IMG/VR virus record: IMGVR_UViG_3300010885_021377
Location: 1 to 64,000 of that record
From: a virus
Taxonomy: Duplodnaviria > Caudoviricetes
DNA: 64,000 nt
Reading direction: 5' to 3' (one strand)
Part shown: positions 41,133-64,000 of the stretch, one piece after another
Layout of the letters: each line of letters opens with the position of its first letter
How positions within the stretch are numbered: the stretch's first letter is position 1
Translations under genes and position numbers: made by a program
Notes under the pieces: model-generated
What the model was told of the DNA's origin: nothing
The model's input: the letters and a program-made list of their open reading frames with translations, nothing else
Databases searched by the model: none

Positions 41133-41161
41133 ATCATAACACAGATTTATCTACAAATCAA
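41133..41161 (-). promoter_or_regulatory. Sigma70-type promoter of gp43 (TTGATT-17-TATGAT, extended TG); ATG 6 nt downstream
   Basis: Motif read directly from the sequence. Confidence 0.7.
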
Positions 41162-42369
41162 GGATTGTATCGTTTCAGATTGACTCTTTCCTTGGCTCCA
41201 TAAGGAGTTAAAAATAATTCTTGATAACAACCCAAGTTTCTATCCAATTCTAAAAATCTATCTTCTGCAACTCTTCTACGTTTATATGAACTATTCTTAT
41301 AGTGTCCTGCTCTACTAAGTTCATATTCCATCTTATAAAGCATTTCTTCGCCAGATTTGAATTTAATGTCAGCATCTTTATATGTACACATATCCTGACA
41401 TGCTACTGGTAATCCATAGGAACATGCTTCGATATATTTCAAATCACTCTTTGCTCTATTGAAAGAATTATCTTGCAATGGTGCCACCATCATCTGTACC
41501 CCCAAATCATATATTTTTTGTGGATAGTCATACAATCTTTGCCATTGATGAAATTCTATCTCTCCTCTTTCAATATATGGTCTAATAGGCGGTGGGAATG
41601 CACCCAAAAATACCCATTGATATTTATGTCTACTATCAATTATCGCTTTGATGACATGTTCAAAATCATCCTTCTGACCCACTCGATTTTCGACATCAAA
41701 ATGAGCACCACTACCAGCATAAAGGACACGAGGCTTCTTTTTATTCTTATCATATAGATCATTTATTCTATTTGGATTAAAATGGTTTCCTATCCAAAAT
41801 TTAGCAGGAAAATTTGGGATTACCGTGATTTCTTGTTTTCCTGTGCGTAATCTATATAAATCCTTCATATAATCACATGTTACACTAACTTCGTCACATA
41901 GATTTATAATATCTGTTACATTATTTCGGATTTCATCTGACGTAAATGCAGTTTTAAATTTGTTATAATCTGGGATATCTTCTCTGAAGACCACATCATC
42001 CACTTCATAAATAATTTTAAAACCAATTTGCTTTTGAACGTCTTTCAAAAATTTTACAAATTCTAATTGAGCAGAAGTTGCTTGACGTTGCAGACGGATA
42101 GCCTTTACATTTACATACCAACGAGGATCTAATACCATTACCGTGGTATCAGTTACCATCATATGTCCTTGATAATTCAATAAATGACTTGCCCATCCTA
42201 GACGGTATAGCCCACATCCACTAAGATCTGCCCCGAATTGTATAACCCTTGGGAGGTGTGTTTCTGATGGTGATTCTATCTTTGGTGCTTCTTCTTGCTT
42301 TTTTGCCGTAGGCGGTAACAGCGGAGAAAATTGCTGAAATGGTCTAGTTGGAGTAAATGGTGTTATCAT
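41158..42369 (-). CDS. GT-B fold glycosyltransferase (GT4-like)
   Basis: GCGLYRL, IIYEVDD, ITVIPN, APLQDNSFNRAKSDLKYIEACSYGLPV (ExxxxG-P-V nucleotide-sugar motif). Confidence 0.8.
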   Translation of the reverse strand: MITPFTPTRPFQQFSPLLPPTAKKQEEAPKIESPSETHLPRVIQFGADLSGCGLYRLGWASHLLNYQGHMMVTDTTVMVLDPRWYVNVKAIRLQRQATSAQLEFVKFLKDVQKQIGFKIIYEVDDVVFREDIPDYNKFKTAFTSDEIRNNVTDIINLCDEVSVTCDYMKDLYRLRTGKQEITVIPNFPAKFWIGNHFNPNRINDLYDKNKKKPRVLYAGSGAHFDVENRVGQKDDFEHVIKAIIDSRHKYQWVFLGAFPPPIRPYIERGEIEFHQWQRLYDYPQKIYDLGVQMMVAPLQDNSFNRAKSDLKYIEACSYGLPVACQDMCTYKDADIKFKSGEEMLYKMEYELSRAGHYKNSSYKRRRVAEDRFLELDRNLGCYQELFLTPYGAKERVNLKRYNP

Positions 42370-47897: not shown

Positions 47898-48296
47898 ATG
47901 GATTTAGGACATTGGGTTACTTCGTTATCAACAATACCAGAAAATCCTTATGGATTTATATATATTATAACTAATACTATTACAGATAGAAAATATATAG
48001 GCAAAAAACAAATGATATCTAATATCAGACGGAAACCCTTAAAGGGGAAAACAAGAGTTAGACGTTGCACCAAAGAATCCAAGTGGAAGACTTACACAAG
48101 TAGTTCTAAAGAATTAAATGAAGATATTATAAAATATGGAATAAATCAATTTAATTTTGAAATATTAAGATTTTGTCATAATAAAAGTCAAATGGCTTAT
48201 TTTGAAGCAAAAGAACAATTTGACAGAGAAGTTCTTCTGAAAAACGATTTTTATAATGGAATAATTAATCTTCGTCTAGGAAAAGTTAAATTTTAG
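47898..48296 (+). CDS. GIY-YIG family endonuclease (catalytic domain only)
   Basis: GFIYIITN...KYIGKK, FEILRFC, YFEAKEQ, FYNG. Confidence 0.85.
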   Translation: MDLGHWVTSLSTIPENPYGFIYIITNTITDRKYIGKKQMISNIRRKPLKGKTRVRRCTKESKWKTYTSSSKELNEDIIKYGINQFNFEILRFCHNKSQMAYFEAKEQFDREVLLKNDFYNGIINLRLGKVKF

Positions 48297-51227: not shown

Positions 51228-51514
51228 TGGATGCCGATCTTTCTGCGCTATATACTAATAGAGTTCAGCCCAGAGGAAAAATAACTATGTCTAGTGGAGC
51301 ATCGTTCGGAGGAACTTCTTTTGAAAGAGACCCACATTTTATAAATTTAGAACAATCCGTATTTTCTAAAATATCGGAACTTACCAAAGAAAAAGAAACA
51401 ACCCATAGACCAGAAAATAAATCCAATAGTCTAAGGGTTGTTTCTGTAGAAGATGCAATTAAAGAATTACAAATACTTAATGTTAATGTATCTGAACCGT
51501 TTCTAGCTTCTTAA
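51227..51514 (+). CDS. Hypothetical protein
   Basis: 95-aa ORF, TAATG-coupled. Confidence 0.5.
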   Translation: MDADLSALYTNRVQPRGKITMSSGASFGGTSFERDPHFINLEQSVFSKISELTKEKETTHRPENKSNSLRVVSVEDAIKELQILNVNVSEPFLAS

Positions 51515-52250
51515 CAATAAATTTTAATATTTGAGACCTAACAACTTCGTTTTCAGTAAAAATAAAGTTGTGTATTCCCTTTTCTTCGCTTTCTTCGTTG
51601 TCGAAAACGTGACGTATTTTAGAAAATCCATTTTTCGATGCTCCAATATCAGATTGGAAACTATCTCCAATTACTATATATTTGGTATTTTCTCCAAATC
51701 GCGTTAATATAGTTGTTAATTCTGCTGTAGTCATATTTTGGGATTCATCTACGATGACTACACTATCTCTGAAAGTAAGACCTCTTACGAAATTTACGGG
51801 CATACATTTGATGTAATTATTTCTTATAAGTTCTCCTCCAATTTTAGGCCCAACCAATTCGTCCAATTTTTCAATTAAAGGCAACGACCAAGGTTGGAAT
51901 TTATCCTGCAATTCTCCGGGAAGACTCCCCATACTTTTAGATGCACTTTCTACTATAGATCTTATATAGACTATTTGACTGATTTGTTTCTTTAGCAACA
52001 TTTGTAATGCTCCATAAACTGCAAGATAAGACTTCCCTGAGCCTGCTGGGCCGTCTACAAAGACCATTTTAGTATCTTTGTATAGCATCATTTCCATGAA
52101 GGAATTATGAATATCATTTAATTTAAACTGGTTGTGTATTTTATAATTTAAAAACCATTCCTTTTTTGTGCTAGTTTCAATGTTATTGAGTAGTATATAT
52201 TCCTCGACATTGTTGTCAAGGACTTCCTTTTTCCTAGTTTTTTTAGCCAT
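51483..52250 (-). CDS. phoH: PhoH-like ATPase
   Basis: GPAGSGKSYLA, GSLPGELQDKFQP, FVRGLTF, VIVDESQNMT, TRFGEN, GDSFQSD, VVRS. Confidence 0.93.
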   Translation of the reverse strand: MAKKTRKKEVLDNNVEEYILLNNIETSTKKEWFLNYKIHNQFKLNDIHNSFMEMMLYKDTKMVFVDGPAGSGKSYLAVYGALQMLLKKQISQIVYIRSIVESASKSMGSLPGELQDKFQPWSLPLIEKLDELVGPKIGGELIRNNYIKCMPVNFVRGLTFRDSVVIVDESQNMTTAELTTILTRFGENTKYIVIGDSFQSDIGASKNGFSKIRHVFDNEESEEKGIHNFIFTENEVVRSQILKFIVKKLETVQIH

Positions 52251-52322
52251 CCCTGTTATTTATACTATAAAAATTGAAAGTCATTGTGTTTTATTATTTC
52301 TTCTGATATACTAACTAGTATC

Positions 52323-52742
52323 ATGGACGAAAAAGATACTAACAAAGTTTCTAAAATAATGATACTTCGAGCTGGAAGAGTTTTACTATTAAGATCAAAA
52401 CATCTGAATAAATTTCATTTTCCGGGGGGTCATATTAAAACTAATGAAACTTTCACTACCGGATTAATGAGAGAAGTTAAAGAAGAAACCGATTTAAATA
52501 TTTCTTCTTGTAAAATTATTTATAAAAAACATAATTTTTGTCTATTTAAAGGATGGGTATATGCTGGGAATGTTAAATTAAGTGACGAACATAACGGTTT
52601 CGTATGGGTAAAAATCGAAGATGCACATATTAAATATCCGGTTTGTAAGTTTACTATGGATGGATTAAGAATTCTTCAATACGAATGGGATAAAATAAAA
52701 AAACAGAAGAAAAGACTTGAAAACCCAGAAAACGTAGACTAA
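52323..52742 (+). CDS. Nudix hydrolase
   Basis: Nudix box PGGHIKTNETFTTGLMREVKEET; start reassigned to ATG 52323 behind TTGTGT-17-TATACT. Confidence 0.9.
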   Translation: MDEKDTNKVSKIMILRAGRVLLLRSKHLNKFHFPGGHIKTNETFTTGLMREVKEETDLNISSCKIIYKKHNFCLFKGWVYAGNVKLSDEHNGFVWVKIEDAHIKYPVCKFTMDGLRILQYEWDKIKKQKKRLENPENVD

Positions 52743-52751
52743 TATATAAAT

Positions 52752-53516
52752 ATGAGAATTTGTATTTCTGGCACAGCCAATATAGGAAAATCTACTTTAA
52801 TAAAAGACTTTATTAATAAATGGGAGATCTATAAAACACCGAAGACCTCCTATAGAGATGTAATAAAAGATAAAAATTATCCACATAATAAAAATTGTAA
52901 TAAAGAGGGGCAATGGGCAATAATGAATCATATGATCGATGATTTACAAAAATATAATAAAACTGATAATATATTGTTCGATAGAGGCCCGCTAGATTGT
53001 TTAGTATATTCTATATGGGCTTATGAAAAGGGATCATCAGATATTGATAAGATTTTTATAGATAAACTTATTCCTTTGGTAAAGGAATCTATGAAACATA
53101 TAGATTTGATATTTTTTCTTCCTGTTACTAAATTATCTCCCGTACAGATAGTGGATAATGGATCTAGAGATACGGATCCGGTCTTCATAGAAGAGATTGA
53201 TAATATTTTCAAAGCTTTGTTTTTTCAATATCAGCATAATCTGGGAAAAACCCCATTCTTCGATTCCGAAGATTGTCCAGCAATGGTAGAAATATTCGGG
53301 AATCCCGAAGAACGCATAGCATTAATCCAACAATATTTAAAAGATGATGGAGAAGTATATGGGGAAGAAGAAGATACAATTCTAAATCCTAAATCGTTGA
53401 TAGAAATCGAAAAGTTATTGAAAGAACAGGAAGATACACATTCCAAAGAACAATCCTACAAAGAACAAGAAAAATTAATAAAAGAATATATTAAAAAATC
53501 TAAGATAAAAATTTAA
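52752..53516 (+). CDS. P-loop deoxynucleoside monophosphate kinase-like protein
   Basis: ISGTANIGKST, FDRGPLDCLVY. Confidence 0.7.
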   Translation: MRICISGTANIGKSTLIKDFINKWEIYKTPKTSYRDVIKDKNYPHNKNCNKEGQWAIMNHMIDDLQKYNKTDNILFDRGPLDCLVYSIWAYEKGSSDIDKIFIDKLIPLVKESMKHIDLIFFLPVTKLSPVQIVDNGSRDTDPVFIEEIDNIFKALFFQYQHNLGKTPFFDSEDCPAMVEIFGNPEERIALIQQYLKDDGEVYGEEEDTILNPKSLIEIEKLLKEQEDTHSKEQSYKEQEKLIKEYIKKSKIKI

Positions 53517-54243: not shown

Positions 54244-55002
54244 ATGATTGATATTCATACTTATATATTTGTTCACGACCAAAATATAATTTTAGATTAT
54301 TTAAATATCGGAAAATTTAAAGATTTCTTAAATTTAACCTATGTATTTCTGGGTAATAGACATTCAGATAAAATAGATAAATTAGATAATGTTATTATAG
54401 TTAATAAGCTTCCTATTAATATAGAACATATACCGAAATTAACCTCATATACTGGTTGGTATGCTCTATGTGAAAATAATTTAATTAAATCTGATTATGT
54501 TAATTTATTTGAATATGATATCAACTATTCAAATAGCTTTATAGAAAAAAATAAAGCATTGATTAATTCCAAACCCGATGCTGTAGGGTATTTCAATTTA
54601 CCTGCAAAGCATCCATTATTTATAGAAGATAAAACCTATAGTGACGTTCTAATTAAAGATATTAAAGAAAAAACTGGTATCGATATGTTTCAATTAGTTG
54701 CAACTTACAGTAAGAAGAATCCAAATCTATTATGGCAGAATACCAGTAATTCGTCTTGGAAAGTTTCGATTCTTAAAGAATATGTTTTATGGGCTAAACA
54801 ATTCCAAGAGGTTTTATCTAAATTTGAATATGCTGGACATGCAATCGAACGATCTATTAGTTTTTTCTATTATATTAAAAAACTAAATGTAAGTTTAACT
54901 AGTGGATTATTGGAACATTTACAATTAAATTCACATAAATCTGATCCACTTCTACCAAAGAATGATAATAGATTTAATGAAGGTTATAAAAAATTAATAT
55001 GA
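54244..55002 (+). CDS. Putative glycosyltransferase-like protein
   Basis: YTGWY...VNLFEYDI (DxD-like) and HAIER motifs; first gene of the glycan island; promoter TTGTAT-16-TATAAT. Confidence 0.45.
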   Translation: MIDIHTYIFVHDQNIILDYLNIGKFKDFLNLTYVFLGNRHSDKIDKLDNVIIVNKLPINIEHIPKLTSYTGWYALCENNLIKSDYVNLFEYDINYSNSFIEKNKALINSKPDAVGYFNLPAKHPLFIEDKTYSDVLIKDIKEKTGIDMFQLVATYSKKNPNLLWQNTSNSSWKVSILKEYVLWAKQFQEVLSKFEYAGHAIERSISFFYYIKKLNVSLTSGLLEHLQLNSHKSDPLLPKNDNRFNEGYKKLI

Positions 55003-55667
55003 AACTTTATACGGTTTTTACAGAATCCCATATGGAGTTGTTTCAGAACTACTTCATTAAATCACTTCCATTTGATCCTAGATTAGAATTAAGAGTTTTA
55101 TTCAAAGAGCAACTTTGTAATGCAGAGTTTAGAACGAAAGGCTGGAGAGAAACGATGTATTACAAAGTCAGATGCTTCATCCAAGCTGCTAAAGAAACTA
55201 CGGACGGAGAATATTTCATTTTTTCAGATCCGGACATTCAATTTTTTAGACCGTTTTATGATGATATTATGAAACAGGTTGAAGGATATGATGCAGCATT
55301 TCAAAATGATTACGGTGGCGGAGTTAATACGGGTTTTTTTATAATGAAATCTACATCAAAAACTAGAGCTTTTTTAAATACGGTAGAAGGTAATTTAGAA
55401 AACTTCCCAGAAGAGCAAGTATGCTTTAATCATTTAATATCAAATTTTAGTAATCCAGATTATAATAAAATTACATTCAAAACCAAAATGCTTTCAGAAA
55501 ATTATTGGACTTATGGTGCTAATTATGCAGCATGGGACGGAAACTCTAAATTTACTTTGCCGAAAGATATTGTAATGCATCATGGTAATTGGACTAAATC
55601 ATTTGCAGAGAAAAAACAACTATTAAATATTGTAAGAGAAAAGTTTAATGAATTTGGAAAATTTTAA
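54999..55667 (+). CDS. Nucleotide-diphospho-sugar transferase (GT77-like)
   Basis: FIFSDPDIQF...VNTGFFIMKS...EEQVCFN...VMHHGNW. Confidence 0.75.
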   Translation: MKLYTVFTESHMELFQNYFIKSLPFDPRLELRVLFKEQLCNAEFRTKGWRETMYYKVRCFIQAAKETTDGEYFIFSDPDIQFFRPFYDDIMKQVEGYDAAFQNDYGGGVNTGFFIMKSTSKTRAFLNTVEGNLENFPEEQVCFNHLISNFSNPDYNKITFKTKMLSENYWTYGANYAAWDGNSKFTLPKDIVMHHGNWTKSFAEKKQLLNIVREKFNEFGKF

Positions 55668-56514
55668 AAAATATATATTAGATATTCCTCAAGTACCATA
55701 TCCACCATATCATGTTGGAAAGTATTTAGAAGAATATTTTATTGATTTTTATTTTAAAAATAAAAACGATTTTGATTTAACTGGATATAACCTTTTACCA
55801 GTTTCGTGGACGAATATATATAATAATCATAATCATTTAGTTCGTGATTTACAAAAAGATTTAAATGAGTTGGATTATTCTGTAAAATATTTTACTGTAT
55901 CACAACATGACGATGCTCCAAAAGAAAAACTTCCCCCAAATACTATAAAATTTTCTGCTGGAGGAAATCAACCGAATTGTGTACCTATACCATTAATTTG
56001 TAGTCCGATACCAAATATCAAAAACCCGATAAGGGATATTTTTTGTAGTTTTATAGGAAGTGCAACCCATCCAGTTAGACTAGATATGCTGCATATTTTA
56101 GTTAATAAATCAGAATATGTATTAAAACCTAAACATTGGTCACCGTCAATAGAAGATACAAGACAAGATTTATTTTTAGATCTAACTTCTAGGAGTACTT
56201 TTTCATTATGTCCAAGAGGTTACGGAACAACTAGCTTTAGATTATATGAGGCTATGCAATTAGGGGCAATACCAGTTTACATATATACAGACGAACCATA
56301 TATACCATTTTCTTTTGATTTAAATTGGAACGATTTTTGTGTATTAATCGATTCTAAATCAATATATAATATAGATAATATATTAAAATCTATTTCAAAT
56401 GAAAAAATAAATGAAATGAGAAGTCGGATAAATGATGTGTATTATAATAACTTTACTTTAGAAAGTACGTGCAAAAGGATTTTAAAATATTTAAATTATG
56501 ATAAAAATAAATAA
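55648..56514 (+). CDS. Exostosin-family glycosyltransferase (GT47-like)
   Basis: FCSFIGS...STFSLCPRGYGTTSFRLYEAMQLGAIPVYI...LNWNDFCVLI. Confidence 0.85.
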   Translation: MNLENFKKYILDIPQVPYPPYHVGKYLEEYFIDFYFKNKNDFDLTGYNLLPVSWTNIYNNHNHLVRDLQKDLNELDYSVKYFTVSQHDDAPKEKLPPNTIKFSAGGNQPNCVPIPLICSPIPNIKNPIRDIFCSFIGSATHPVRLDMLHILVNKSEYVLKPKHWSPSIEDTRQDLFLDLTSRSTFSLCPRGYGTTSFRLYEAMQLGAIPVYIYTDEPYIPFSFDLNWNDFCVLIDSKSIYNIDNILKSISNEKINEMRSRINDVYYNNFTLESTCKRILKYLNYDKNK

Positions 56515-57256
56515 TATATTCAAAGATGTATCTAAACAAGGTCTAGGTAATAGACTATTTCAGTATTGTTGGGCTAGAGATTTAGCTGTACAAAAAGGAT
56601 ATAAATTAGTATCTGATCCAATTTTAGGATTTCCTATAACATATGAACCATTAAATGGGCATTCTACCACAGATAATATTTTAATAACACCAGAAGCTAC
56701 ACAAATATTTGATATTCCTAGAATATTAAACCATAATGGTGCTATTATTGTTGCAGGATATCCACAGAGATATCAGCATTATATACAAAATAAAGATAAT
56801 ATTAAAAGCTGGCTATATGTAGAAAATGAACAGAATTATGATACTGTTGATCCTGATGATATTGTAGTTAATGTTAGATTGGGTGATTATGTAAATCTTG
56901 GTTGGGATTTAGATATGATTTATTATAAGAAATTATTGGAAAGAGAAACTTATAAAAATGCTTATATAGTTTGTGACGAACCACATAATCCAAAATTAAA
57001 AATTTTAACTGATATGGGATGTAAAATCAAAGATAATTCCTCTCATGGTAAATTAAAATTTTTAGCAGATTTTGTTTTTGTCAAATCTGCAAAAAAAACT
57101 ATTATCGCAAATAGTACTTTTAGTTGGTGGTCTTCATTTTTAGGTGATGGTATTGTTTATTATCCTTGTCTAAAATTTCCTTGGTCTAAAAATCCAAGTT
57201 CTAATGATGTGGATCTACGGCCATATGATGAAAAAAGATATAAATTTGTGATATAA
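56498..57256 (+). CDS. GT11 (alpha-1,2-fucosyltransferase-like)
   Basis: GLGNRLFQY, VNVRLGDY, IIANSTFSWW. Confidence 0.85.
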   Translation: MIKINNIFKDVSKQGLGNRLFQYCWARDLAVQKGYKLVSDPILGFPITYEPLNGHSTTDNILITPEATQIFDIPRILNHNGAIIVAGYPQRYQHYIQNKDNIKSWLYVENEQNYDTVDPDDIVVNVRLGDYVNLGWDLDMIYYKKLLERETYKNAYIVCDEPHNPKLKILTDMGCKIKDNSSHGKLKFLADFVFVKSAKKTIIANSTFSWWSSFLGDGIVYYPCLKFPWSKNPSSNDVDLRPYDEKRYKFVI

Positions 57257-58167
57257 TGAACGAATTAAAGATACACTTTGTAGATTTTTGGCCTAATTTT
57301 AAAAATGATGATAATTATTTTTATCATTTGTTGTCCACAGAATATAAAGTAATACTAGATGAACATGATCCTGATATATTATTTTATTCTTTTGATTATA
57401 CAGGAAATCCACAGCATTACAAATATAATAATAAAAGATGTATAAAAATATATTATACTGGAGAATGTAGTTTGCCTGATTATAATCAATGTCATTTTTC
57501 TTTTACATTTGAACACGAATATGACGATAGAAATTATAGACTTCCTCTTTGGGGGTTGCATATAAATTGGTTTAATATTCCGGATGATTTAAATAGAGAT
57601 CAATCATACTTACATCCATTAAATATGCTTTTAGAAAAAGAAAAGATTTTTAATAAGATTAAAAAAGAAAAATTCTGTAGTTTTATTTCTTCTAATCCAA
57701 AAGGAAATAGAATGAGCTTTGTTCCCAAATTAAATGCTGTCAAAAAAGTTGATTGTATTGGTAGATTATTTAATAATGTAACCCAAAATATTAAAGGAAG
57801 AGGAGATCAAATATGGAAAATAATAGAATTAAAACCATATAAATTTAATATTAGTTTTGAGAATACATCTCATGATGGTTATGTTACAGAAAAAATAATT
57901 CACCCGATGTTTGTAAATACAATACCAATTTATTGGGGAAGTAAAAAAGTTGGAGAAGATTTCAATTCAAAATCTTTTATATCTCAACATGACTTTTCTA
58001 GTGAAGAAGAAATGATCGATCATATAATGGAAATAGATAATAATAAAAATAAATATAAAGAAATTTTAGATCAACCTTGGTTTATTAATAATAAATATCC
58101 AGATTTTATTCTTCCTATAAATGTTATGAAATTTTTTAAAACAAAAATTTTACCAAAAATAACATAG
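57256..58167 (+). CDS. GT10 (alpha-1,3-fucosyltransferase-like)
   Basis: KFCSFISSNP; YKFNISFENTSHDGYVTEKI...IPIYWG. Confidence 0.9.
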   Translation: MNELKIHFVDFWPNFKNDDNYFYHLLSTEYKVILDEHDPDILFYSFDYTGNPQHYKYNNKRCIKIYYTGECSLPDYNQCHFSFTFEHEYDDRNYRLPLWGLHINWFNIPDDLNRDQSYLHPLNMLLEKEKIFNKIKKEKFCSFISSNPKGNRMSFVPKLNAVKKVDCIGRLFNNVTQNIKGRGDQIWKIIELKPYKFNISFENTSHDGYVTEKIIHPMFVNTIPIYWGSKKVGEDFNSKSFISQHDFSSEEEMIDHIMEIDNNKNKYKEILDQPWFINNKYPDFILPINVMKFFKTKILPKIT

Positions 58168-58201
58168 TTGATATTAATATTAATTCAAATAAATATTTAA
58201 A

Positions 58202-58846
58202 ATGAATATAAAGGAATGGATAATTTCTAATTTAGATATTTCTTCTATTGTTTTGGAGGCAGGAACTTGCGAAGGATTAGATACTGAATTCTTTTCAAAT
58301 TATTTTATAAAAGGATTCGTATATGGATTTGAACCTATACCAGATTTATATAATAAAGCATATATAAGAAATTCTCATAAACCAAATGTGAAATTATTTA
58401 ATTGTGCATTAGGAGACAAGACACAAAAGGTTAAAATTCATGTTAGTGATAGATTTAATGAATCTTGGGGATCATCATCAATTTTACCCCCCAAAAAACA
58501 CTTATCAGATCATCCACAAATAACCTTTAAAAAAACTATAGAAATTGATTGTATAAATTTAGATGATTGGATGTCAGATAAAAATATACCAAAAATAGAT
58601 TTAATGTGGTTAGATATGCAAGGATATGAACCAGTTATGTTAAAATTTTCTATTAATAGTCTTCTTAAAGTTAGATATTTATATACAGAAGTTTCTTTAA
58701 CTGAATTATATGATGGTATTATATTGTATCCAGAATATAAAAAGTTTTTATTATCCAATGGATTCGAAGTAATATTCGAAGATTTACCTTGGGAAAATGG
58801 GGGAAATGTTCTTTTTAAAAATATAAAATTAAATGAAACCCGATAA
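58202..58846 (+). CDS. FkbM-family SAM methyltransferase
   Basis: VLEAGTCEG, YGFEPIP, LFNCALG, IDLMWLDMQGYE, YTEV. Confidence 0.88.
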   Translation: MNIKEWIISNLDISSIVLEAGTCEGLDTEFFSNYFIKGFVYGFEPIPDLYNKAYIRNSHKPNVKLFNCALGDKTQKVKIHVSDRFNESWGSSSILPPKKHLSDHPQITFKKTIEIDCINLDDWMSDKNIPKIDLMWLDMQGYEPVMLKFSINSLLKVRYLYTEVSLTELYDGIILYPEYKKFLLSNGFEVIFEDLPWENGGNVLFKNIKLNETR

Positions 58847-59540
58847 AATATATATAATTCACTATACTAAATTAAAAGACCGATATAATCATATCTCCAG
58901 CTTTTTTGATAGTTGTAAGATTCCTTATGAATTTATACTGGATAATGATCAAGAAGATCTCACACCAAAAATTTTAGATCAATATTACAAGCCAAATAAA
59001 GAAGAGTACGAAAACCGAATTTCCAAATTATGGGATGTAAATATACATAAATTTAGGTATCTTAATAAAGCTGAAATATCTTGTACTATTAAACATATAA
59101 CAGCTATAAAAAAAATATCTTCAGAATGTCCAAATTATGGATTAATATTAGAAGATGATGCAATATTTTATGATAATTTTAATAAACAATTTGATAAATG
59201 CTTGAATCAAACCCCAGATGATTGGGATTCTATTTTTCTAGGAGATGGATGTGGAGTTAATTTTAAAAGTTCAAAACTTTTAAATAGTAAAAAAGTAAAT
59301 GATAATGTATATTTAATGGCACATCCAGCAACAAATTGTGCGGAAGCATATTTATTAAAACCTTCTATTGCAGAAAAAATATCAAACAGTATAATACCAT
59401 TCCAAAATGTTTCAGATTGGGAAATTGCTTACCAATTATATTTACACGATGCTAAAACTTATTGGTGGAATCCGTCGTTAGTTACACAAGGTTCTAGAAA
59501 TGGGAAATTTGAATCTACTTTAGATCAAGGACAAAGATAA
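58833..59540 (+). CDS. GT25-like glycosyltransferase
   Basis: AEISCTIKH, LILEDDA, WDSIFLG, AEAYLL. Confidence 0.8.
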   Translation: MKPDKIYIIHYTKLKDRYNHISSFFDSCKIPYEFILDNDQEDLTPKILDQYYKPNKEEYENRISKLWDVNIHKFRYLNKAEISCTIKHITAIKKISSECPNYGLILEDDAIFYDNFNKQFDKCLNQTPDDWDSIFLGDGCGVNFKSSKLLNSKKVNDNVYLMAHPATNCAEAYLLKPSIAEKISNSIIPFQNVSDWEIAYQLYLHDAKTYWWNPSLVTQGSRNGKFESTLDQGQR

Positions 59541-59575
59541 CTTGAAAATAACTATAATTAATATAAATAACTGAT

Positions 59576-60082
59576 ATGGCTGCTGGAATAGGATTAATAG
59601 ATTTGATACAAAACAATAAATTTAATGTTGGATTAGAAATTGGAGTTTCTTTGGGTTCTACTACAGAAATATTATTAAGATCTATACCTAATTTAAAATT
59701 GTTTGGAGTTGATCCATATATGTATTATATAGACTGGAATGGGAATGAAATAATAGATAACGATGAATATATGAATACCATGTTAAATGCTATCAAACCA
59801 TATAACGAAAGATTTGTTCATATTAGGAAAACATCAGATGATGCTGTTTTAGATTTTGAAAATGAATCTTTGGATTTTATATTTATCGATGGAGTACACA
59901 CGTATGATCAGGTTAAAAAAGATTGCGAAAATTTTTATCCGAAATTAAAGAAAAATGGTTTATTTTCTGGTCATGATTATAACGCTATTTCAGTAGTGAG
60001 AAATGCTGTGGACGATTTTAAAAAAACTGTAAATAAAGATTTAAGTTTTACTAATAATGATGTTTGGTACTTTTTTAAATGA
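59576..60082 (+). CDS. Class I SAM methyltransferase (Methyltransf_24-like)
   Basis: GLEIGVSLG, LFGVDPY, DFIFIDGVHTY, LFSGHDY. Confidence 0.88.
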   Translation: MAAGIGLIDLIQNNKFNVGLEIGVSLGSTTEILLRSIPNLKLFGVDPYMYYIDWNGNEIIDNDEYMNTMLNAIKPYNERFVHIRKTSDDAVLDFENESLDFIFIDGVHTYDQVKKDCENFYPKLKKNGLFSGHDYNAISVVRNAVDDFKKTVNKDLSFTNNDVWYFFK

Positions 60083-61170
60083 TAAAAGTTGCTTTTATTA
60101 AATTTGCTGGATTAGCGTCAGGAGGAACCGAAAAATATCTTCAATCTTTAGCATGTTTATTACCCAAAGACAGATATAAAGTAGATTATTATTACACTAA
60201 TAATGCCCCAAGATCTAGAGAAACTGGATTTGTGCATCCAGATAATGATCCATCTCGTAAGCTTTTGTTGGAAAATAATGGTATAAAAACTATTCCTATT
60301 CATATTGATATGATGGATATAGAGAGTCCATCAACATGGAACGGTACTGATTTTTGGGAAATCTTTAAAGAATCTGATTATGATTTAATACAAACAGCTA
60401 GAGGTGGATATACTGAATATCCATTTAATTTAATACATAATTGCCCCATAATTGACAGCATTCATAGCTTTCAAGGTGAAGACAAGCCAAACATTAAAAG
60501 AGCTATCCTATTGTGTAAATGGCAGGCTGAAAAATGGGCCGCTAATGGTGGAAATATAAATAAAGCCGTAATTATTCCATCAATAGTAAAAGTTCCAGAA
60601 AAGAAATCTTCTACAATTAGAAAAAAATTAAATATTCCCGAAGATGCATTTGTGTATGGATTTCACCAAGCATCTAGATCTGATATATTTTCTCCAACCT
60701 CAATACAAGCATATTCTATGATCAAAGATAGTAATACACATTTTGTATTATTAGGAGGATGTCAACAACACATAGAAATTGCAAGAAATTTGGGGATTAA
60801 AAATATACATTTTATAAAATTTACAAGTTCAGTAGAAGGCATACATGATTTTTTGGCAGGAATAGATGTGTATGCCCATGCCAGATCAGACGGTGAAGTA
60901 TGTTCTGCTTCGATTATAGAAGCTATGTATCATGGAAAGCCTGTAATATCACATCCAGCCCAAAATATGGGACATCTAGAGCAAATAGATGGTTGTGGAA
61001 AAATGACATATTCGGTAAATGAATACGCAGAAGAAATGAGATTATTAAAAGATAACAAAAATTATTACACAGAAAAATCAGAAAAAACTTTTATAAAATA
61101 CGAAAATTGTTATAATCACCAAAAAATAGAAAATAATATTATAAAAATTTACGATGATTTGTTGTCCTAA
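60079..61170 (+). CDS. GT-B glycosyltransferase (GT4-like)
   Basis: SGGTEKY; DVYAHARSDGEVCSASIIEAMYHGKPVIS. Confidence 0.85.
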   Translation: MIKVAFIKFAGLASGGTEKYLQSLACLLPKDRYKVDYYYTNNAPRSRETGFVHPDNDPSRKLLLENNGIKTIPIHIDMMDIESPSTWNGTDFWEIFKESDYDLIQTARGGYTEYPFNLIHNCPIIDSIHSFQGEDKPNIKRAILLCKWQAEKWAANGGNINKAVIIPSIVKVPEKKSSTIRKKLNIPEDAFVYGFHQASRSDIFSPTSIQAYSMIKDSNTHFVLLGGCQQHIEIARNLGIKNIHFIKFTSSVEGIHDFLAGIDVYAHARSDGEVCSASIIEAMYHGKPVISHPAQNMGHLEQIDGCGKMTYSVNEYAEEMRLLKDNKNYYTEKSEKTFIKYENCYNHQKIENNIIKIYDDLLS

Positions 61171-61209
61171 CGGTAGTTGTTTTTCTTTATAACCTTTGTA
61201 TATAATAAT

Positions 61210-61878
61210 ATGACTTTAGAAGAAAAGATTGATGAAATAGATTTCAGATTAAAAAATGAAGCTAGAATTATTGCTAATTGGGATTATCACGAAGCTTTTC
61301 ATTTGGCTTGTGGTGATGAAGTTAAATTAGACGGTTTATGGATGGAATTTGGTGTTTTTACTGGAAGAAGTTTAGAGCAATTTTCTCGAAAATGTCCTTC
61401 TGTATTATATGGATTTGATTCATTTGAAGGTCTACATGAAAAATGGGATGATAACAACCCAAAAGGAGTTTTTAACTTAAATGGTAAAATCCCACCCGGA
61501 TACATTGTTGGTGATAATCACTCTATGCATGATAGTTCTTTACCATTAAATTGGAAACCTTGGCCTAACAATGTAAAATTAGTAAAAGGATTTTTCGATA
61601 AAACTCTGCCAGTTTTCCTTGAAAAATTCGAAGGAGACGCAGCATTAATTCACATTGATTGTGATTTATATTCATCAACAAAAGACATTTTTAAATATTT
61701 GAAAAATAGGATAAAATCTGGGACTATTATAGTATTTGATGAAATTACAGATTATCCAGATTTCAGATTACATGAAATTAAAGCATTTGCCGAATTTTTA
61801 TTAGAAAGTGGATTTAATTATAACCCATTAATATATCAAAATTTAGGTTGCAGTCAAGGATGTTTTGAAATATTATAA
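61210..61878 (+). CDS. TylF/MycF-like sugar O-methyltransferase
   Basis: MEFGVFTGRS, YGFDSFEGL, LVKGFFDKTLP, IHIDCDLYSST, VFDE; start reassigned to ATG 61210. Confidence 0.8.
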   Translation: MTLEEKIDEIDFRLKNEARIIANWDYHEAFHLACGDEVKLDGLWMEFGVFTGRSLEQFSRKCPSVLYGFDSFEGLHEKWDDNNPKGVFNLNGKIPPGYIVGDNHSMHDSSLPLNWKPWPNNVKLVKGFFDKTLPVFLEKFEGDAALIHIDCDLYSSTKDIFKYLKNRIKSGTIIVFDEITDYPDFRLHEIKAFAEFLLESGFNYNPLIYQNLGCSQGCFEIL

Positions 61879-61896
61879 TTATTATCAATAATTATT

Positions 61897-62457
61897 ATGA
61901 ATAATTATATAAAAACTTATTTCGAAGAAATACAAAAAATAATAAATTTAATAGATAAATCTATTATTGAAATTTTTATAAATAAAATATCTAATATAAA
62001 AAAAAATAATGGTAGATTGTTTATATTGGGTGTTGGTGGTAGTGCTGCTAATGCTAGTCATGCTGTAAATGATTTCAGAAAAATTCTTAATATAGAAACA
62101 TATGCAGTTACCGATAATGTTTCTGAATTAACAGCTAGAATTAATGACGAAAGTTGGGAAGATTCTTATAAGAATAGTTTAAAAGTTAGTAGATTAACAT
62201 TTAATGATGCTGTCCTTATATTCTCTGTAGGTGGAGGATCAGATACAACTTCCAAAAATTTAGTTAATGCAATGAAATATGCAAAAGAATGTGGATCACA
62301 AATTTTAGCAGTAGTAAGTAGAGATGGTGGAATAGCTAAAATATTAGCTGATGCTTGTATTTTAATACCCGTTATTAATGAACAAAGAATTACTGCCCAT
62401 GCGGAAGAATGGCAAGGAATTATTTTACATTTAGTAGTTAATTATTTTAAAAAATAA
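61897..62457 (+). CDS. gmhA: Phosphoheptose isomerase (SIS domain)
   Basis: GVGGSAANASHAVNDF, TARIND, FSVGGGS, EEWQ...HL; context beside transaldolase and HddA. Confidence 0.8.
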   Translation: MNNYIKTYFEEIQKIINLIDKSIIEIFINKISNIKKNNGRLFILGVGGSAANASHAVNDFRKILNIETYAVTDNVSELTARINDESWEDSYKNSLKVSRLTFNDAVLIFSVGGGSDTTSKNLVNAMKYAKECGSQILAVVSRDGGIAKILADACILIPVINEQRITAHAEEWQGIILHLVVNYFKK

Positions 62458-62458
62458 T

Positions 62459-63184
62459 ATGAATATAGATATACAAAAAGAAGCATCACAAAATTATCCA
62501 ACTTGTTTAAATGACGTTTCATTCAATGATGGTCATTTGGGTGGATGTAATGTTAAGGGAGATCCCGGCACAGAATGTCCTAAAATGTGGAAATATATAT
62601 GTGAAAAATATAATATTAAATCTGTTTTAGATGTTGGTTGTGGATTTGGGTTTCATTTAAAATATTTTAAAGATTTTTTAAATTTAAATATTTTTGGAAT
62701 TGAAGGATCTGAAAAGGTACAACAAATTTCATTTTACCCAGACAAAATAGCAGCCCACGATTATACTAAAGGTCCATATTTTTTAGAAGAAAAATTCGAT
62801 TTGTGTTGGTCTGTAGAATTTGTAGAACATGTAAATCATGAATATATACAAAATTTTTTAATTAATTTTTCTAAATGTAAATACTTAATAATGACACATG
62901 GATTACCGGGGCAATCAGGACATAATCACGTAAATTGTCAAGATTCAGATTATTGGATAAATCAATTGGTGAATTATGGATTTCACTTGAATTTAGAAGA
63001 AACTGATAATATTAGAAAATTAGCTATGGAAGATTATAATGATTTTAGGGCATGGCAAAAATTAGATTTTAATAATAGACCAATTAGGGGTGTAGCATGT
63101 CAATATAATTATGATGTAACTTATTTAGAACCTCATGTAGCATTGCATGGATTATTTTTTGAAAATAAAAATTTAATCAAATAA
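62459..63184 (+). CDS. Class I SAM methyltransferase
   Basis: VLDVGCGFG, FDLCWSVEFVEH, GHNHVNCQ. Confidence 0.8.
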   Translation: MNIDIQKEASQNYPTCLNDVSFNDGHLGGCNVKGDPGTECPKMWKYICEKYNIKSVLDVGCGFGFHLKYFKDFLNLNIFGIEGSEKVQQISFYPDKIAAHDYTKGPYFLEEKFDLCWSVEFVEHVNHEYIQNFLINFSKCKYLIMTHGLPGQSGHNHVNCQDSDYWINQLVNYGFHLNLEETDNIRKLAMEDYNDFRAWQKLDFNNRPIRGVACQYNYDVTYLEPHVALHGLFFENKNLIK

Positions 63185-63185
63185 T

Positions 63186-63896
63186 ATGAACATACAAATT
63201 TATGCTGATACTTCTGTTTTAACAGAAATTTTTGATATATACGAAAACAATAAATTAATTAGCGGATTTACCACTAATCCAAGTTTAATGCGTAAAGCAG
63301 GTATAACTAATTATTCTAATTTTATAAAAGAAGTTACGTCAAAGATAACAGATCTTCCGTTTTCTTTCGAAATTTTTGCTGATGAGTTATCTGAAATGGA
63401 ATATCAAATACAGAAAATTTCTGAATATTCAAACAATATATATGTAAAAGTTCCAATAACAAATACAAAAGGGGAATCTACCGTTAATTTAATTAAAAAG
63501 ATGTCAGATAAAGGAATTAAAGTAAATATTACTGCTATATTTACTTTTGAACAAATTTCAGAAATTTTTAATAAATTGAAAAATATTAATTCTTCATTGA
63601 TAATTTCTTTATTTGCTGGTAGAATATCTGATACAGGGATTGATCCATGTGAATTAATATCAGAAACGTCATATAAAATAAAAACGAGCGAAAATAAAAA
63701 TTTAAAATCTTTATGGGCTAGTACCAGATCGGTTTATAATATATACGAAGCTGCTAATAATGGATGTGATATAATAACTGTAACTCCAGATATTTTACCT
63801 AAATTAAAATTAAAAAATAAAGATTTAAATCAATTTTCCTTAGAAACTGTTAAAATGTTTTACGATGATGCTAAAGCATCGAATTTAACTATATGA
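63186..63896 (+). CDS. talC: Transaldolase (short TalC type)
   Basis: IYADT, GFTTNPSL, SFEIF, YVKVP (Schiff-base Lys), NITAIF, SLFAGRI, LWAS. Confidence 0.9.
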   Translation: MNIQIYADTSVLTEIFDIYENNKLISGFTTNPSLMRKAGITNYSNFIKEVTSKITDLPFSFEIFADELSEMEYQIQKISEYSNNIYVKVPITNTKGESTVNLIKKMSDKGIKVNITAIFTFEQISEIFNKLKNINSSLIISLFAGRISDTGIDPCELISETSYKIKTSENKNLKSLWASTRSVYNIYEAANNGCDIITVTPDILPKLKLKNKDLNQFSLETVKMFYDDAKASNLTI

Positions 63897-64000
63897 TATT
63901 AACTAGAACTCCATTAAGAATAACATTGGGTGGTGGTGGTACTGATTTGCCTAGTTTTTACGAAAAACATGGTGGGTTAGTCATTTCAATGGCAATTAAT
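63893..64000 (+). CDS. hddA: 5' end of a GHMP kinase, D-glycero-alpha-D-manno-heptose-7-phosphate kinase-like (not in ORF track)
   Basis: ATG overlaps the tal TGA; translates to MILTRTPLRITLGGGGTDLPSFYEKHGGLVISMAIN and runs off the window. Confidence 0.8.
   Translation, partial: MILTRTPLRITLGGGGTDLPSFYEKHGGLVISMAIN

What the first reader, a model, noticed from the sequence alone, without database searches (positions are those of the whole stretch)
61897..64000. Phage-encoded nucleotide-heptose pathway: transaldolase, GmhA and HddA in one operon
Seen: gmhA, a methyltransferase, talC and a previously uncalled hddA 5' end are tightly coupled at the end of the glycan island. Established: transaldolase makes sedoheptulose-7-P, GmhA isomerises it to D-glycero-D-manno-heptose-7-P, and HddA starts the GDP-D-glycero-alpha-D-manno-heptose route. 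The Tal keeps the Glu (SFEIF) and Phe (SLFAGR) that distinguish transaldolases from fructose-6-P aldolases. Inference: this talC is not the NADPH-boosting auxiliary gene described in cyanophages but the entry step of a phage heptose-donor pathway.
Basis: partly seen in the sequence, partly recalled or inferred. Interest (0 to 1): 0.85.

Follow-up and report, generated by a model that had tools for sequence, protein, structure and literature searches.

The report
Phage heptose-sugar operon with own transaldolase
A distant T4-like phage carries, at the end of a 9-kb sugar-chain gene island, a tightly coupled set of genes that most likely turns central sugar phosphates into an activated seven-carbon sugar; the kind of pathway is already known in phages, but the built-in transaldolase and the odd mix of enzyme types are new details.

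Summary
Four coupled + strand genes lie at 61897-64000: a GmhA-like SIS isomerase, a SAM methyltransferase, a transaldolase with the full transaldolase catalytic set, and the first 36 residues of an HddA-like GHMP kinase. The window is a phage: tail sheath, terminase, gp43 and gp46 homologues.

The main inference is supported by gene neighbourhood. Of 56 viral loci with this kinase, 53 also hold the transaldolase and the isomerase. Of the 80 best bacterial homologues of the transaldolase, 64 lie beside heptose genes. The enzyme is only 31-33% identical to cyanophage TalC.

The "GDP / HddC" part is not supported. In the three closest phages (kinase start 81-89% identical) the kinase is followed by a fusion and then an SDR epimerase. 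The fusion joins a small HAD phosphatase (closest solved relative: phage HY126 AfhF) to a cytidylyltransferase-fold enzyme with HxGY instead of HxGH. So the nucleotide is probably not GDP.

Heptose genes are already annotated in cultured phages (SynMITS9220M01, Cr30, P-TIM68), and viral NDP-heptose enzymes have been assayed. I class this as a new variant of a known kind.

The scan noted the same stretch from an overlapping window. The window's own downstream DNA could not be read.

The parts
61897..62457 (+). GmhA-like SIS-domain sugar-phosphate isomerase (186 aa); proposed reaction: sedoheptulose-7-P to D-glycero-D-manno-heptose-7-P
   Evidence: SIS_2 E 4.6e-8. TIGR00441 gmhA is the best NCBIfam model, but at 52 bits against a cut-off of 209. 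In a profile search the top 12 PDB hits are all phosphoheptose isomerases. At the four GmhA catalytic/metal positions (His/Glu/Gln/His) it has His, Asp, Glu, His. It is 41-73% identical to homologues in viral and bacterial Tal-linked clusters.
62459..63184 (+). Class I SAM-dependent methyltransferase (241 aa); substrate unknown, possibly the heptose or its glycan
   Evidence: Methyltransf_11 E 6.3e-7 and Methyltransf_25; only weak NCBIfam hits. Homologues sit in the same position in L002 and L010, and elsewhere in the island in about 12 viral loci.
63186..63896 (+). Short transaldolase of the Staphylococcus/Coxiella type (236 aa); proposed to make sedoheptulose-7-P from fructose-6-P and erythrose-4-P
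   Evidence: PF00923 E 2.7e-34; TIGR02134 279.9 bits against a cut-off of 281.95. Asp8, Glu62, Lys88, Asn114, Thr116, Ser141, Phe143 and Arg146 align with the catalytic residues of 3r8r/3s0c and are invariant in A2. It falls in an all-viral clade inside a mostly heptose-linked family.
63893..64000 (+). First 36 codons of an HddA-like GHMP sugar kinase, cut by the window end
   Evidence: ATG at 63893 overlaps the Tal stop codon. HddA model E 3.8e-5. 81-89% identical to the N-termini of the 327-aa kinases of L001-L003, whose best PDB relatives are heptose kinases 3k85, 4usk (WcbL) and 4n3o.
54999..61878 (+). Upstream part of the same same-strand island, the likely users of the activated sugar: GT77-like, GT47-like, GT11-like, GT10, FkbM methyltransferase, GT25, Methyltransf_24, GT4, TylF-like methyltransferase
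   Evidence: Pfam hits; the ORFs are contiguous or overlapping.

Best explanation
The stretch is the front half of a phage-encoded pathway for a nucleotide-activated heptose, embedded in a glycan-building island.

Proposed steps:
1. The transaldolase makes sedoheptulose-7-P from fructose-6-P and erythrose-4-P.
2. The GmhA-like isomerase converts it to D-glycero-D-manno-heptose-7-P.
3. The GHMP kinase phosphorylates C1.
4. Just beyond the window, a small HAD phosphatase domain removes the 7-phosphate. This step is seen in the three closest phages, and earlier notes of this scan report the matching genes in this genome.
5. The cytidylyltransferase-fold domain fused to that phosphatase makes NDP-heptose.
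6. An SDR epimerase modifies it, and the island's glycosyltransferases and methyltransferases use it.

Shown here: gene content, coupling, family assignments, catalytic residues, and conserved synteny in viruses and bacteria. Inferred: every reaction, the anomer, the nucleotide (probably ADP or CDP rather than GDP), and the acceptor (a virion or host-envelope glycan fits better than DNA).
For: Phage identity: tail sheath, TerL, gp43, gp46, UvsX, gp32 and primase homologues.

Coupled genes.

Tal, isomerase and kinase assignments.

Synteny in viruses: of 56 IMG/VR loci found through the kinase, 53 have Tal, 53 have the GmhA-like gene and 51 have all three. In the 18 loci with the fusion, Tal lies 60 nt or less from the kinase, and 27 nt or less in 17 of them.

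Synteny in bacteria: of the 80 best Tal homologues, 59 have the GmhA-like gene, 54 a GmhB-like HAD, 42 the kinase and 42 an HddC-like transferase within 8 kb. One cluster uses an HldE-like enzyme instead.

Downstream genes in L001-L003: the fusion carries the HAD motifs DxDxT, TAR, GKP and DD, plus a CTP_transf_like domain. Its closest solved relatives are AfhF (a sugar-1,5-bisphosphate phosphatase), TagD and HldC (PMC13326640).

Domain-fusion evidence that the phosphatase belongs to the pathway: in L028 the same small HAD domain is fused to the GmhA-like gene.

The same cassette minus Tal is in Synechococcus phage SynMITS9220M01, genes 204-207.
Against: - No enzyme here has been assayed.
- The isomerase and kinase score far below the NCBIfam equivalog cut-offs (52 against 209; 130 against 600). 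They are distinct subfamilies whose substrates could differ.
- The window ends after 36 codons of the kinase, so the phosphatase, transferase and epimerase are known only from relatives with 70-89% identical neighbouring genes and from unchecked notes of this scan.
- A GHMP (alpha-anomer) kinase paired with an HldC-like (beta-anomer) transferase is biochemically awkward.
- The transferase has Tyr in place of the second catalytic His.
- The viral loci were collected through the kinase, and only the top 80 of at least 588 bacterial Tal hits were examined, so the co-occurrence figures carry selection bias.
Confidence: 0.72

Rival explanations
1. It is the canonical GDP-D-glycero-alpha-D-manno-heptose pathway (GmhA, HddA, GmhB, HddC), with HddC and GmhB lying beyond the window.
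For: The kinase is HddA-like. Most bacterial Tal-linked clusters, and about 21 of the viral loci, pair this kinase with an HddC-like NTP_transferase.
Against: In the window's own clade (Tal clade of 15, SH-aLRT 96) the gene after the kinase is the HAD/cytidylyltransferase-fold fusion, and no HddC-like gene lies within 8 kb. Notes from an overlapping window of the same genome also describe an HxGH-fold enzyme after the kinase (unchecked).
Confidence: 0.1
2. The transaldolase is a general pentose-phosphate auxiliary gene, as proposed for cyanophage talC, and lies beside the sugar genes only by accident of phage genome packing.
For: Transaldolase is a common auxiliary gene of T4-like cyanophages. 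Firmicute members of the same Tal family stand alone and presumably serve the pentose-phosphate pathway.
Against: Tal is adjacent to the isomerase and kinase in 51 of 56 viral loci and overlaps or abuts the kinase start in the fusion-type loci. The same linkage is seen in 64 of 80 bacterial loci across many phyla. Identity to cyanophage TalC is only 31-33% and the NCBIfam subfamily differs. A second, different Tal lineage is also found beside heptose genes in other viral loci.
Confidence: 0.08
3. The cassette supplies a sugar for hypermodification of the phage DNA (heptosyl or arabinosyl pyrimidines) rather than for a protein or envelope glycan.
For: Phage gene sets with a HAD/kinase enzyme, a cytidylyltransferase and a GT-B enzyme put heptose on 5hmC (bioRxiv 10.1101/2023.12.21.572611). 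The closest solved relative of the HAD domain is AfhF of the DNA-arabinosylation pathway. A GT-like ORF sits between gp46 and the DNA polymerase (41158-42369).
Against: Five related viral records, one estimated complete, have no thymidylate-synthase homologue, no TET/JBP and no C5-methyltransferase, so no known route to 5hmC, 5hoC or 5hmU; the TET search had no positive control. The isomerase matches GmhA, and no solved arabinose-5-P isomerase appeared among the hits at E 0.01 or better. The island holds six families of LPS/glycan-type transferases and four methyltransferases, more than DNA decoration needs.
Confidence: 0.1

Closest known systems
Heptose cassette of Synechococcus phage SynMITS9220M01 (MT408532, genes 204-207), listed in its genome announcement as heptose-related LPS genes (PMC7378029)
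   Same: T4-like phage. GHMP-type 'D,D-heptose 7-phosphate kinase', a phosphoheptose isomerase, the same HAD/nucleotidyltransferase fusion (44% identical, HPGY motif; annotated 'hypothetical') and a closely related SDR annotated as heptose 6-epimerase (314 bits).
   Different: No transaldolase in the cassette; that phage lists talC as a separate gene. Its isomerase and kinase are only distantly related to those here (28 and 58 bits). The gene order differs.
Bacterial GDP-D-glycero-alpha-D-manno-heptose pathway (GmhA, HddA, GmhB, HddC; Kneidinger et al. 2001, cited in PMC7378029)
   Same: Isomerase, GHMP C1-kinase, 7-phosphatase and nucleotidyltransferase logic. The kinase's best relatives are HddA/WcbL-type enzymes. 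Many bacterial clusters of this type also contain the same Tal and GmhA-like subfamily.
   Different: In the window's clade, GmhB and HddC are replaced by one fusion protein of other families: a small AfhF-like HAD plus a cytidylyltransferase fold.
ADP-heptose pathway and the NDP-heptose biosynthetic enzymes reported from viruses (HldE / HldA-HldC; Tang et al., summarised in PMC11573728)
   Same: Cytidylyltransferase-fold heptose nucleotidyltransferase; rfaE domain II is the second-best NCBIfam model, and HldC 5xf2 is among the structural hits. Viral enzymes of this kind have been shown to make ADP-, CDP- or UDP-heptose.
   Different: The kinase is GHMP, not PfkB. The signature is HxGY, not HxGH, in 114 of 115 homologues, and the C-terminal motif reads GWSTT rather than the GRSTT of the promiscuous enzymes. 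The anomer is therefore uncertain.
UDP-arabinose pathway of phages HY126, RB69 and DLP3 (arabinose-5-P isomerase, AfhE kinase/pyrophosphorylase, AfhF phosphatase; PMC13326640)
   Same: T4-like phages. The same four-step logic: SIS isomerase, C1 kinase, terminal-phosphate HAD phosphatase, nucleotidyltransferase. AfhF (9iqw) is the closest solved relative of the HAD domain (E 3.8e-16).
   Different: Different isomerase, kinase and transferase families. The sugar there is a pentose and goes onto DNA; the required thymidylate-synthase homologue is absent from relatives of this phage.
Cyanophage TalC
   Same: A short transaldolase-family gene carried by a T4-like phage.
   Different: 31-33% identity; different NCBIfam subfamily; it lies among unrelated small genes rather than in a sugar operon. 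It fell outside the 121-row family when used as the outgroup.

Membership tests
Transaldolase (PF00923; TIGR02134 Staphylococcus/Coxiella-type) | Full-length match to the family profile | tested here: met
   PF00923 119.3 bits against a cut-off of 27.
Transaldolase (PF00923; TIGR02134 Staphylococcus/Coxiella-type) | Score above the NCBIfam equivalog cut-off | tested here: not met
   279.9 bits against a cut-off of 281.95, i.e. 2 bits short.
Transaldolase (PF00923; TIGR02134 Staphylococcus/Coxiella-type) | Schiff-base Lys, catalytic Asp and Glu, and the Asn and Phe that separate transaldolases from fructose-6-P aldolases (which have Leu, Gln, Tyr) | tested here: met
   Asp8, Glu62, Lys88, Asn114, Thr116, Ser141, Phe143 and Arg146 align with 3r8r and 3s0c and are invariant in A2. 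Residue roles are taken from established knowledge of TalB, TacTAL and FSA.
Cyanophage TalC / FSA subfamily (TIGR00875) | Score above the family cut-off and grouping with cyanophage TalC | tested here: not met
   77.5 bits against a cut-off of 245.95; 31-33% identity; P-SSM4 and syn9 TalC lie outside the 121-row family, which has 100% SH-aLRT support.
GmhA, sedoheptulose-7-P isomerase (TIGR00441) | Score above the equivalog cut-off | tested here: not met
   52.2 bits against a cut-off of 209.45.
GmhA, sedoheptulose-7-P isomerase (TIGR00441) | Closest characterised relatives are GmhA rather than other SIS enzymes | tested here: met
   The top 12 PDB hits of the family profile are all phosphoheptose isomerases (E 4e-15 to 1e-8), followed by DiaA; no arabinose-5-P or hexulose-6-P isomerase was listed.
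GmhA, sedoheptulose-7-P isomerase (TIGR00441) | Catalytic/metal residues (E. coli His61, Glu65, Gln172, His180) | tested here: inconclusive
   The aligned positions are His, Asp, Glu, His. These are chemically compatible but two are substituted. Numbering is from my knowledge of the E. coli and B. pseudomallei structures.
HddA, heptose-7-P C1-kinase (GHMP; NF049969) | Score above the equivalog cut-off | tested here: not met
   The window fragment scores 23.3 bits and the full-length orthologue in L001 scores 129.7, against a cut-off of 600.
HddA, heptose-7-P C1-kinase (GHMP; NF049969) | Closer to heptose kinases than to fucokinase or galactokinase | tested here: met
   The orthologue scores HddA 129.7, fucokinase 94.9 and galactokinase 45.8. 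PDB heptose kinases 3k85, 4usk and 4n3o score 101-119 bits against 58-62 for fucokinase. The 36-aa fragment alone cannot decide.
GDP-heptose pathway (HddA-GmhB-HddC) | An HddC-type NTP_transferase and a GmhB phosphatase accompany the kinase | tested here: not met
   Not readable in the window. In L001-L003 and 15 further fusion-type loci the partner is the HAD/CTP_transf fusion and no HddC-like gene is present.
ADP-heptose pathway (HldE or HldA/HldC) | PfkB-family kinase | tested here: not met
   The kinase is GHMP.
ADP-heptose pathway (HldE or HldA/HldC) | Cytidylyltransferase-fold transferase with the HxGH signature | tested here: inconclusive
   The fold is met in relatives: PF01467; TagD, HldC and 3glv are among the structural hits. 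The signature is HxGY in 114 of 115 homologues.
AfhF / EcbF-BcbF small HAD sugar-bisphosphate phosphatases (TIGR01689) | HAD motifs I-IV and similarity to AfhF | tested here: met
   Tested in relatives only. DxDxT, TAR, GKP and DD motifs; 9iqw E 3.8e-16; Foldseek E 5e-7. TIGR01689 scores 43 bits against a cut-off of 162, so it is a relative, not a member by cut-off.

The most novel reading that the evidence does not exclude
This phage clade makes a nucleotide-heptose that has not been described, for example a CDP- or ADP-linked D-glycero-alpha-D-manno-heptose. It would do so by a hybrid route: its own transaldolase plus a Tal-associated GmhA subfamily, an alpha-type GHMP kinase, and an AfhF-like phosphatase fused to an HxGY nucleotidyltransferase. 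The product would go into a methylated, heptose-containing glycan on the virion.
Probability: 0.25. Interest if true: 0.75.

Novelty: new variant of a known kind. Interest (0 to 1): 0.55.

Why it matters
If the biochemistry holds, four things follow:
- A transaldolase would serve as a dedicated precursor-supply enzyme inside sugar-nucleotide gene clusters, in phages and across many bacterial phyla. That gives "talC-like" viral auxiliary genes a second meaning besides redirecting the pentose-phosphate pathway.
- The abundant metagenomic proteins annotated "glycerol-3-phosphate cytidylyltransferase" or "capsule biosynthesis phosphatase" (more than 1000 hits) would be bifunctional heptose-bisphosphate phosphatase / heptose-1-P nucleotidyltransferases. 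That fills the "missing GmhB" in phage cassettes, including one in a cultured cyanophage.
- The GHMP kinase paired with an HldC-like transferase poses a clear, testable question about anomer and nucleotide specificity. NDP-heptoses are also innate-immune agonists.
- It adds to the evidence that large phages build complex glycans themselves.

Tried and rejected
Attempts to read the window's own downstream DNA failed:
- No whole genome is held for this window.
- Exact-match scans of viral and metagenome contigs with the last 48 bases of the window found nothing.

Other dead ends:
- DNA-level search of GenBank phages found only a 300-bp, 67% match in two Staphylococcus records that probably carry host DNA.
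- The AlphaFold model of the 402-aa GT-like protein (41158-42369) was unusable (pLDDT 36), so its likeness to DNA glucosyltransferases could not be tested.
- T4 late-promoter counting: TATAAATA occurs 30 times against 29 expected, so expression timing cannot be argued from the motif.
- A Gp23 Pfam search in relatives missed divergent capsids. I used the window's TerL instead, which is 40-44% identical in the contigs of L001 and L003.
- Cluster look-ups gave no accessions or organisms for the fusion family.

Readings rejected:
- An arabinose-5-P or hexulose-6-P isomerase reading of the SIS gene.
- A fucokinase reading of the kinase.
- A plain glycerol-3-P cytidylyltransferase reading of the fusion. 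This rests on context only; TagD is in fact its best single PDB hit, so it is not excluded biochemically.
Full report
**What is in the window**

Four + strand frames fill 61897-64000:
- 61897-62457 (186 aa)
- 62459-63184 (241 aa)
- 63186-63896 (236 aa)
- an open frame starting at the ATG at 63893, which overlaps the preceding TGA and runs off the window after 36 codons

The gaps are 1 nt, 1 nt and a 4-nt overlap. Only 18 nt separate the first gene from the TylF-like methyltransferase upstream. So the four genes continue a same-strand island that begins near 54999. That island encodes GT77-like, GT47-like, GT11-like, GT10, GT25 and GT4 enzymes plus FkbM, Methyltransf_24 and TylF-like methyltransferases.

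The window is a phage. It has a tail sheath, large terminase, tail fibres, a T4-type DNA polymerase, gp46/gp47-like nuclease subunits, UvsX, UvsW, gp32, a primase and PhoH. The polymerase is only about 29-31% identical to any GenBank phage, so this is a distant T4-like lineage. G+C is about 30%.

**The four genes**

*Transaldolase.* It matches PF00923 (E 2.7e-34). It scores 279.9 bits on TIGR02134, the short Staphylococcus/Coxiella-type transaldolase, two bits under the cut-off. On the TalC/FSA model TIGR00875 it scores only 77.5 bits. Alignment with solved transaldolases places Asp8, Glu62 (SFEIF), Lys88, Asn114/Thr116 and Ser141-x-Phe143-x-x-Arg146 (SLFAGR) on the catalytic positions. All are invariant in ten viral homologues.

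*Isomerase.* It is a single SIS domain. Every significant NCBIfam and PDB relative is a phosphoheptose isomerase, but the scores are low (52 bits against a cut-off of 209). A profile of 15 viral and bacterial homologues gives GmhA structures as the top 12 hits. The four GmhA catalytic/metal positions read His, Asp, Glu, His. It is a distinct, well-conserved subfamily, 41-73% identical among members.

*Methyltransferase.* A generic class I enzyme.

*Kinase fragment.* On its own it cannot separate HddA from fucokinase. It is 81-89% identical to the start of 327-aa kinases in three related phage contigs. Those full-length kinases score highest on the HddA model and on solved heptose kinases.

**What follows the window**

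I could not read the window's own continuation. Three IMG/VR contigs (L001-L003) have Tal 69-72% identical. They share the polymerase and gp46 neighbourhood, and two of them, L001 and L003, have a terminase 40-44% identical. All three show the same order: isomerase, (methyltransferase), Tal, kinase, a 243-aa protein, a 303-aa SDR epimerase/dehydratase, then gp46.

The 243-aa protein is a fusion:
- Residues 1-108 carry all four HAD motifs (DxDxT, TAR, GKP, DD). The closest solved relative is 9iqw, the phage HY126 D-arabinose-1,5-diphosphate phosphatase AfhF (PMC13326640).
- Residues 111-243 are a cytidylyltransferase fold. The nearest relatives are TagD, the rfaE domain II model and HldC.

One viral locus (L028) fuses the same small HAD domain to the GmhA-like gene instead. 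That domain-fusion pattern ties the phosphatase to this pathway.

The transferase signature is HxGY, not HxGH, in 114 of 115 full-length homologues. It is a conserved peculiarity rather than decay.

**Is the transaldolase part of the pathway?**

Scanning IMG/VR for the kinase gave 55 loci. Adding L006 and L007 from the Tal scan and removing repeat contigs left 56 loci. Of these, 53 hold Tal, 53 hold the GmhA-like gene and 51 hold all three. In the 18 fusion-type loci Tal ends 60 nt or less from the kinase start, and 27 nt or less in 17 of them.

Scanning one genome per prokaryotic species for Tal gave at least 588 hits. Among the best 80, within 8 kb:
- 59 have the GmhA-like gene
- 54 have a GmhB-like HAD
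- 42 have the kinase
- 42 have an HddC-like transferase

One cluster carries a reversed HldE-like enzyme instead. Firmicute members stand alone.

In a quick maximum-likelihood tree the window's Tal lies in an all-viral clade of 15 (SH-aLRT 96). That clade sits inside a 121-row family with 100% support. P-SSM4 and syn9 TalC, used as the outgroup, lie outside it. A few viral loci have a different Tal lineage beside the same genes.

The co-occurrence figures carry selection bias, from kinase-based and top-hit sampling. Even so, the linkage across phyla and across both transferase types is strong evidence that Tal plus this isomerase subfamily form a sedoheptulose-7-P to heptose-7-P supply module. 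I found no paper in the held library that describes this linkage.

**What is already known**

- gmhA is treated as a standard marine viral auxiliary gene (PMC9238414).
- The SynMITS9220M01 announcement lists a heptose kinase, a phosphoheptose isomerase and a heptose epimerase as host-acquired genes (PMC7378029). Its gene 206, annotated "hypothetical", is the same fusion.
- Caulobacter phage Cr30 has GmhA, a GHMP heptose kinase and a cytidylyltransferase-fold gene.
- P-TIM68, S-SM2 and S-CAM3 carry related genes.
- Viral NDP-heptose enzymes have been shown to make ADP-, CDP- or UDP-heptose (PMC11573728).
- A phage HAD/kinase plus cytidylyltransferase plus GT set puts heptose on 5hmC DNA.

None of the GenBank phage loci examined has Tal next to the heptose genes.

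**Where does the sugar go?**

Not settled. DNA modification is made less likely by the absence of thymidylate-synthase homologues, TET/JBP and C5-methyltransferases from five related viral records, one of them estimated complete. The TET search had no positive control. The many LPS-type transferases and O-methyltransferases fit a protein or envelope glycan. Expression timing could not be inferred.

**Verdict**

The "Tal feeds a phage heptose pathway" inference is supported by comparative genomics. The GDP/HddC route is probably wrong for this clade.

The pathway class is known in phages. Three features are new:
- the embedded transaldolase / GmhA-subfamily module
- the HAD / HxGY-transferase fusion
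- the pairing of a GHMP kinase with an HldC-like transferase

All reactions remain inferred.

Noticed in passing
window 41158-42369 (-): A 402-aa ORF between the gp46-like gene and the DNA polymerase matches phrog_7162 'glycosyltransferase' and is conserved (44-46% identity) at the same place in L001-L003. No Pfam hit. The AlphaFold model was unusable (pLDDT 36), so whether it is a DNA glycosyltransferase is open.
   Followed up: partly
L001:11688-12419 and homologues (A3; P0001-P0120): The HAD/nucleotidyltransferase fusion family has HxGY in place of the HxGH signature in 114 of 115 full-length homologues, and a C-terminal GWSTT motif. There are more than 1000 metagenomic homologues, mostly unnamed or called glycerol-3-phosphate cytidylyltransferase.
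   Followed up: partly
L028:10353-11294 (-): A 314-aa protein fuses the small HAD phosphatase domain to the GmhA-like isomerase, in a locus that also has an HddC-like transferase.
   Followed up: partly
L073:7378-12372: A bacterial (Pseudomonadota MAG) cluster with the GmhA-like gene, Tal, two SDRs and an HldE-like protein whose domains are in reversed order (transferase first, PfkB kinase second).
   Followed up: partly
L041, L044-L046, L048, L053, L056, L057: These viral loci carry a different, more distant transaldolase lineage beside the kinase and a divergent isomerase. This suggests the transaldolase was recruited to heptose clusters more than once. Long branches make their placement unsure.
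   Followed up: no
window 47898-48296 (+); L001:16482-17342 (-): A SegE-like GIY-YIG endonuclease in the window, and an HNH/NUMOD3 endonuclease next to the polymerase in L001: mobile nuclease genes typical of T4-like genomes.
   Followed up: no
window 52284-53516 (+): A NUDIX hydrolase and an AAA_28/thymidylate-kinase-like gene lie just upstream of the glycan island, next to PhoH (51483-52250, -).
   Followed up: no
GenBank OR844993.1 and MG543995.1 (L145): Two 'Staphylococcus phage' records hold a Staphylococcus-type transaldolase (42-43% identical). One record is marked UNVERIFIED_ORG and is unannotated. They probably contain host DNA.
   Followed up: no
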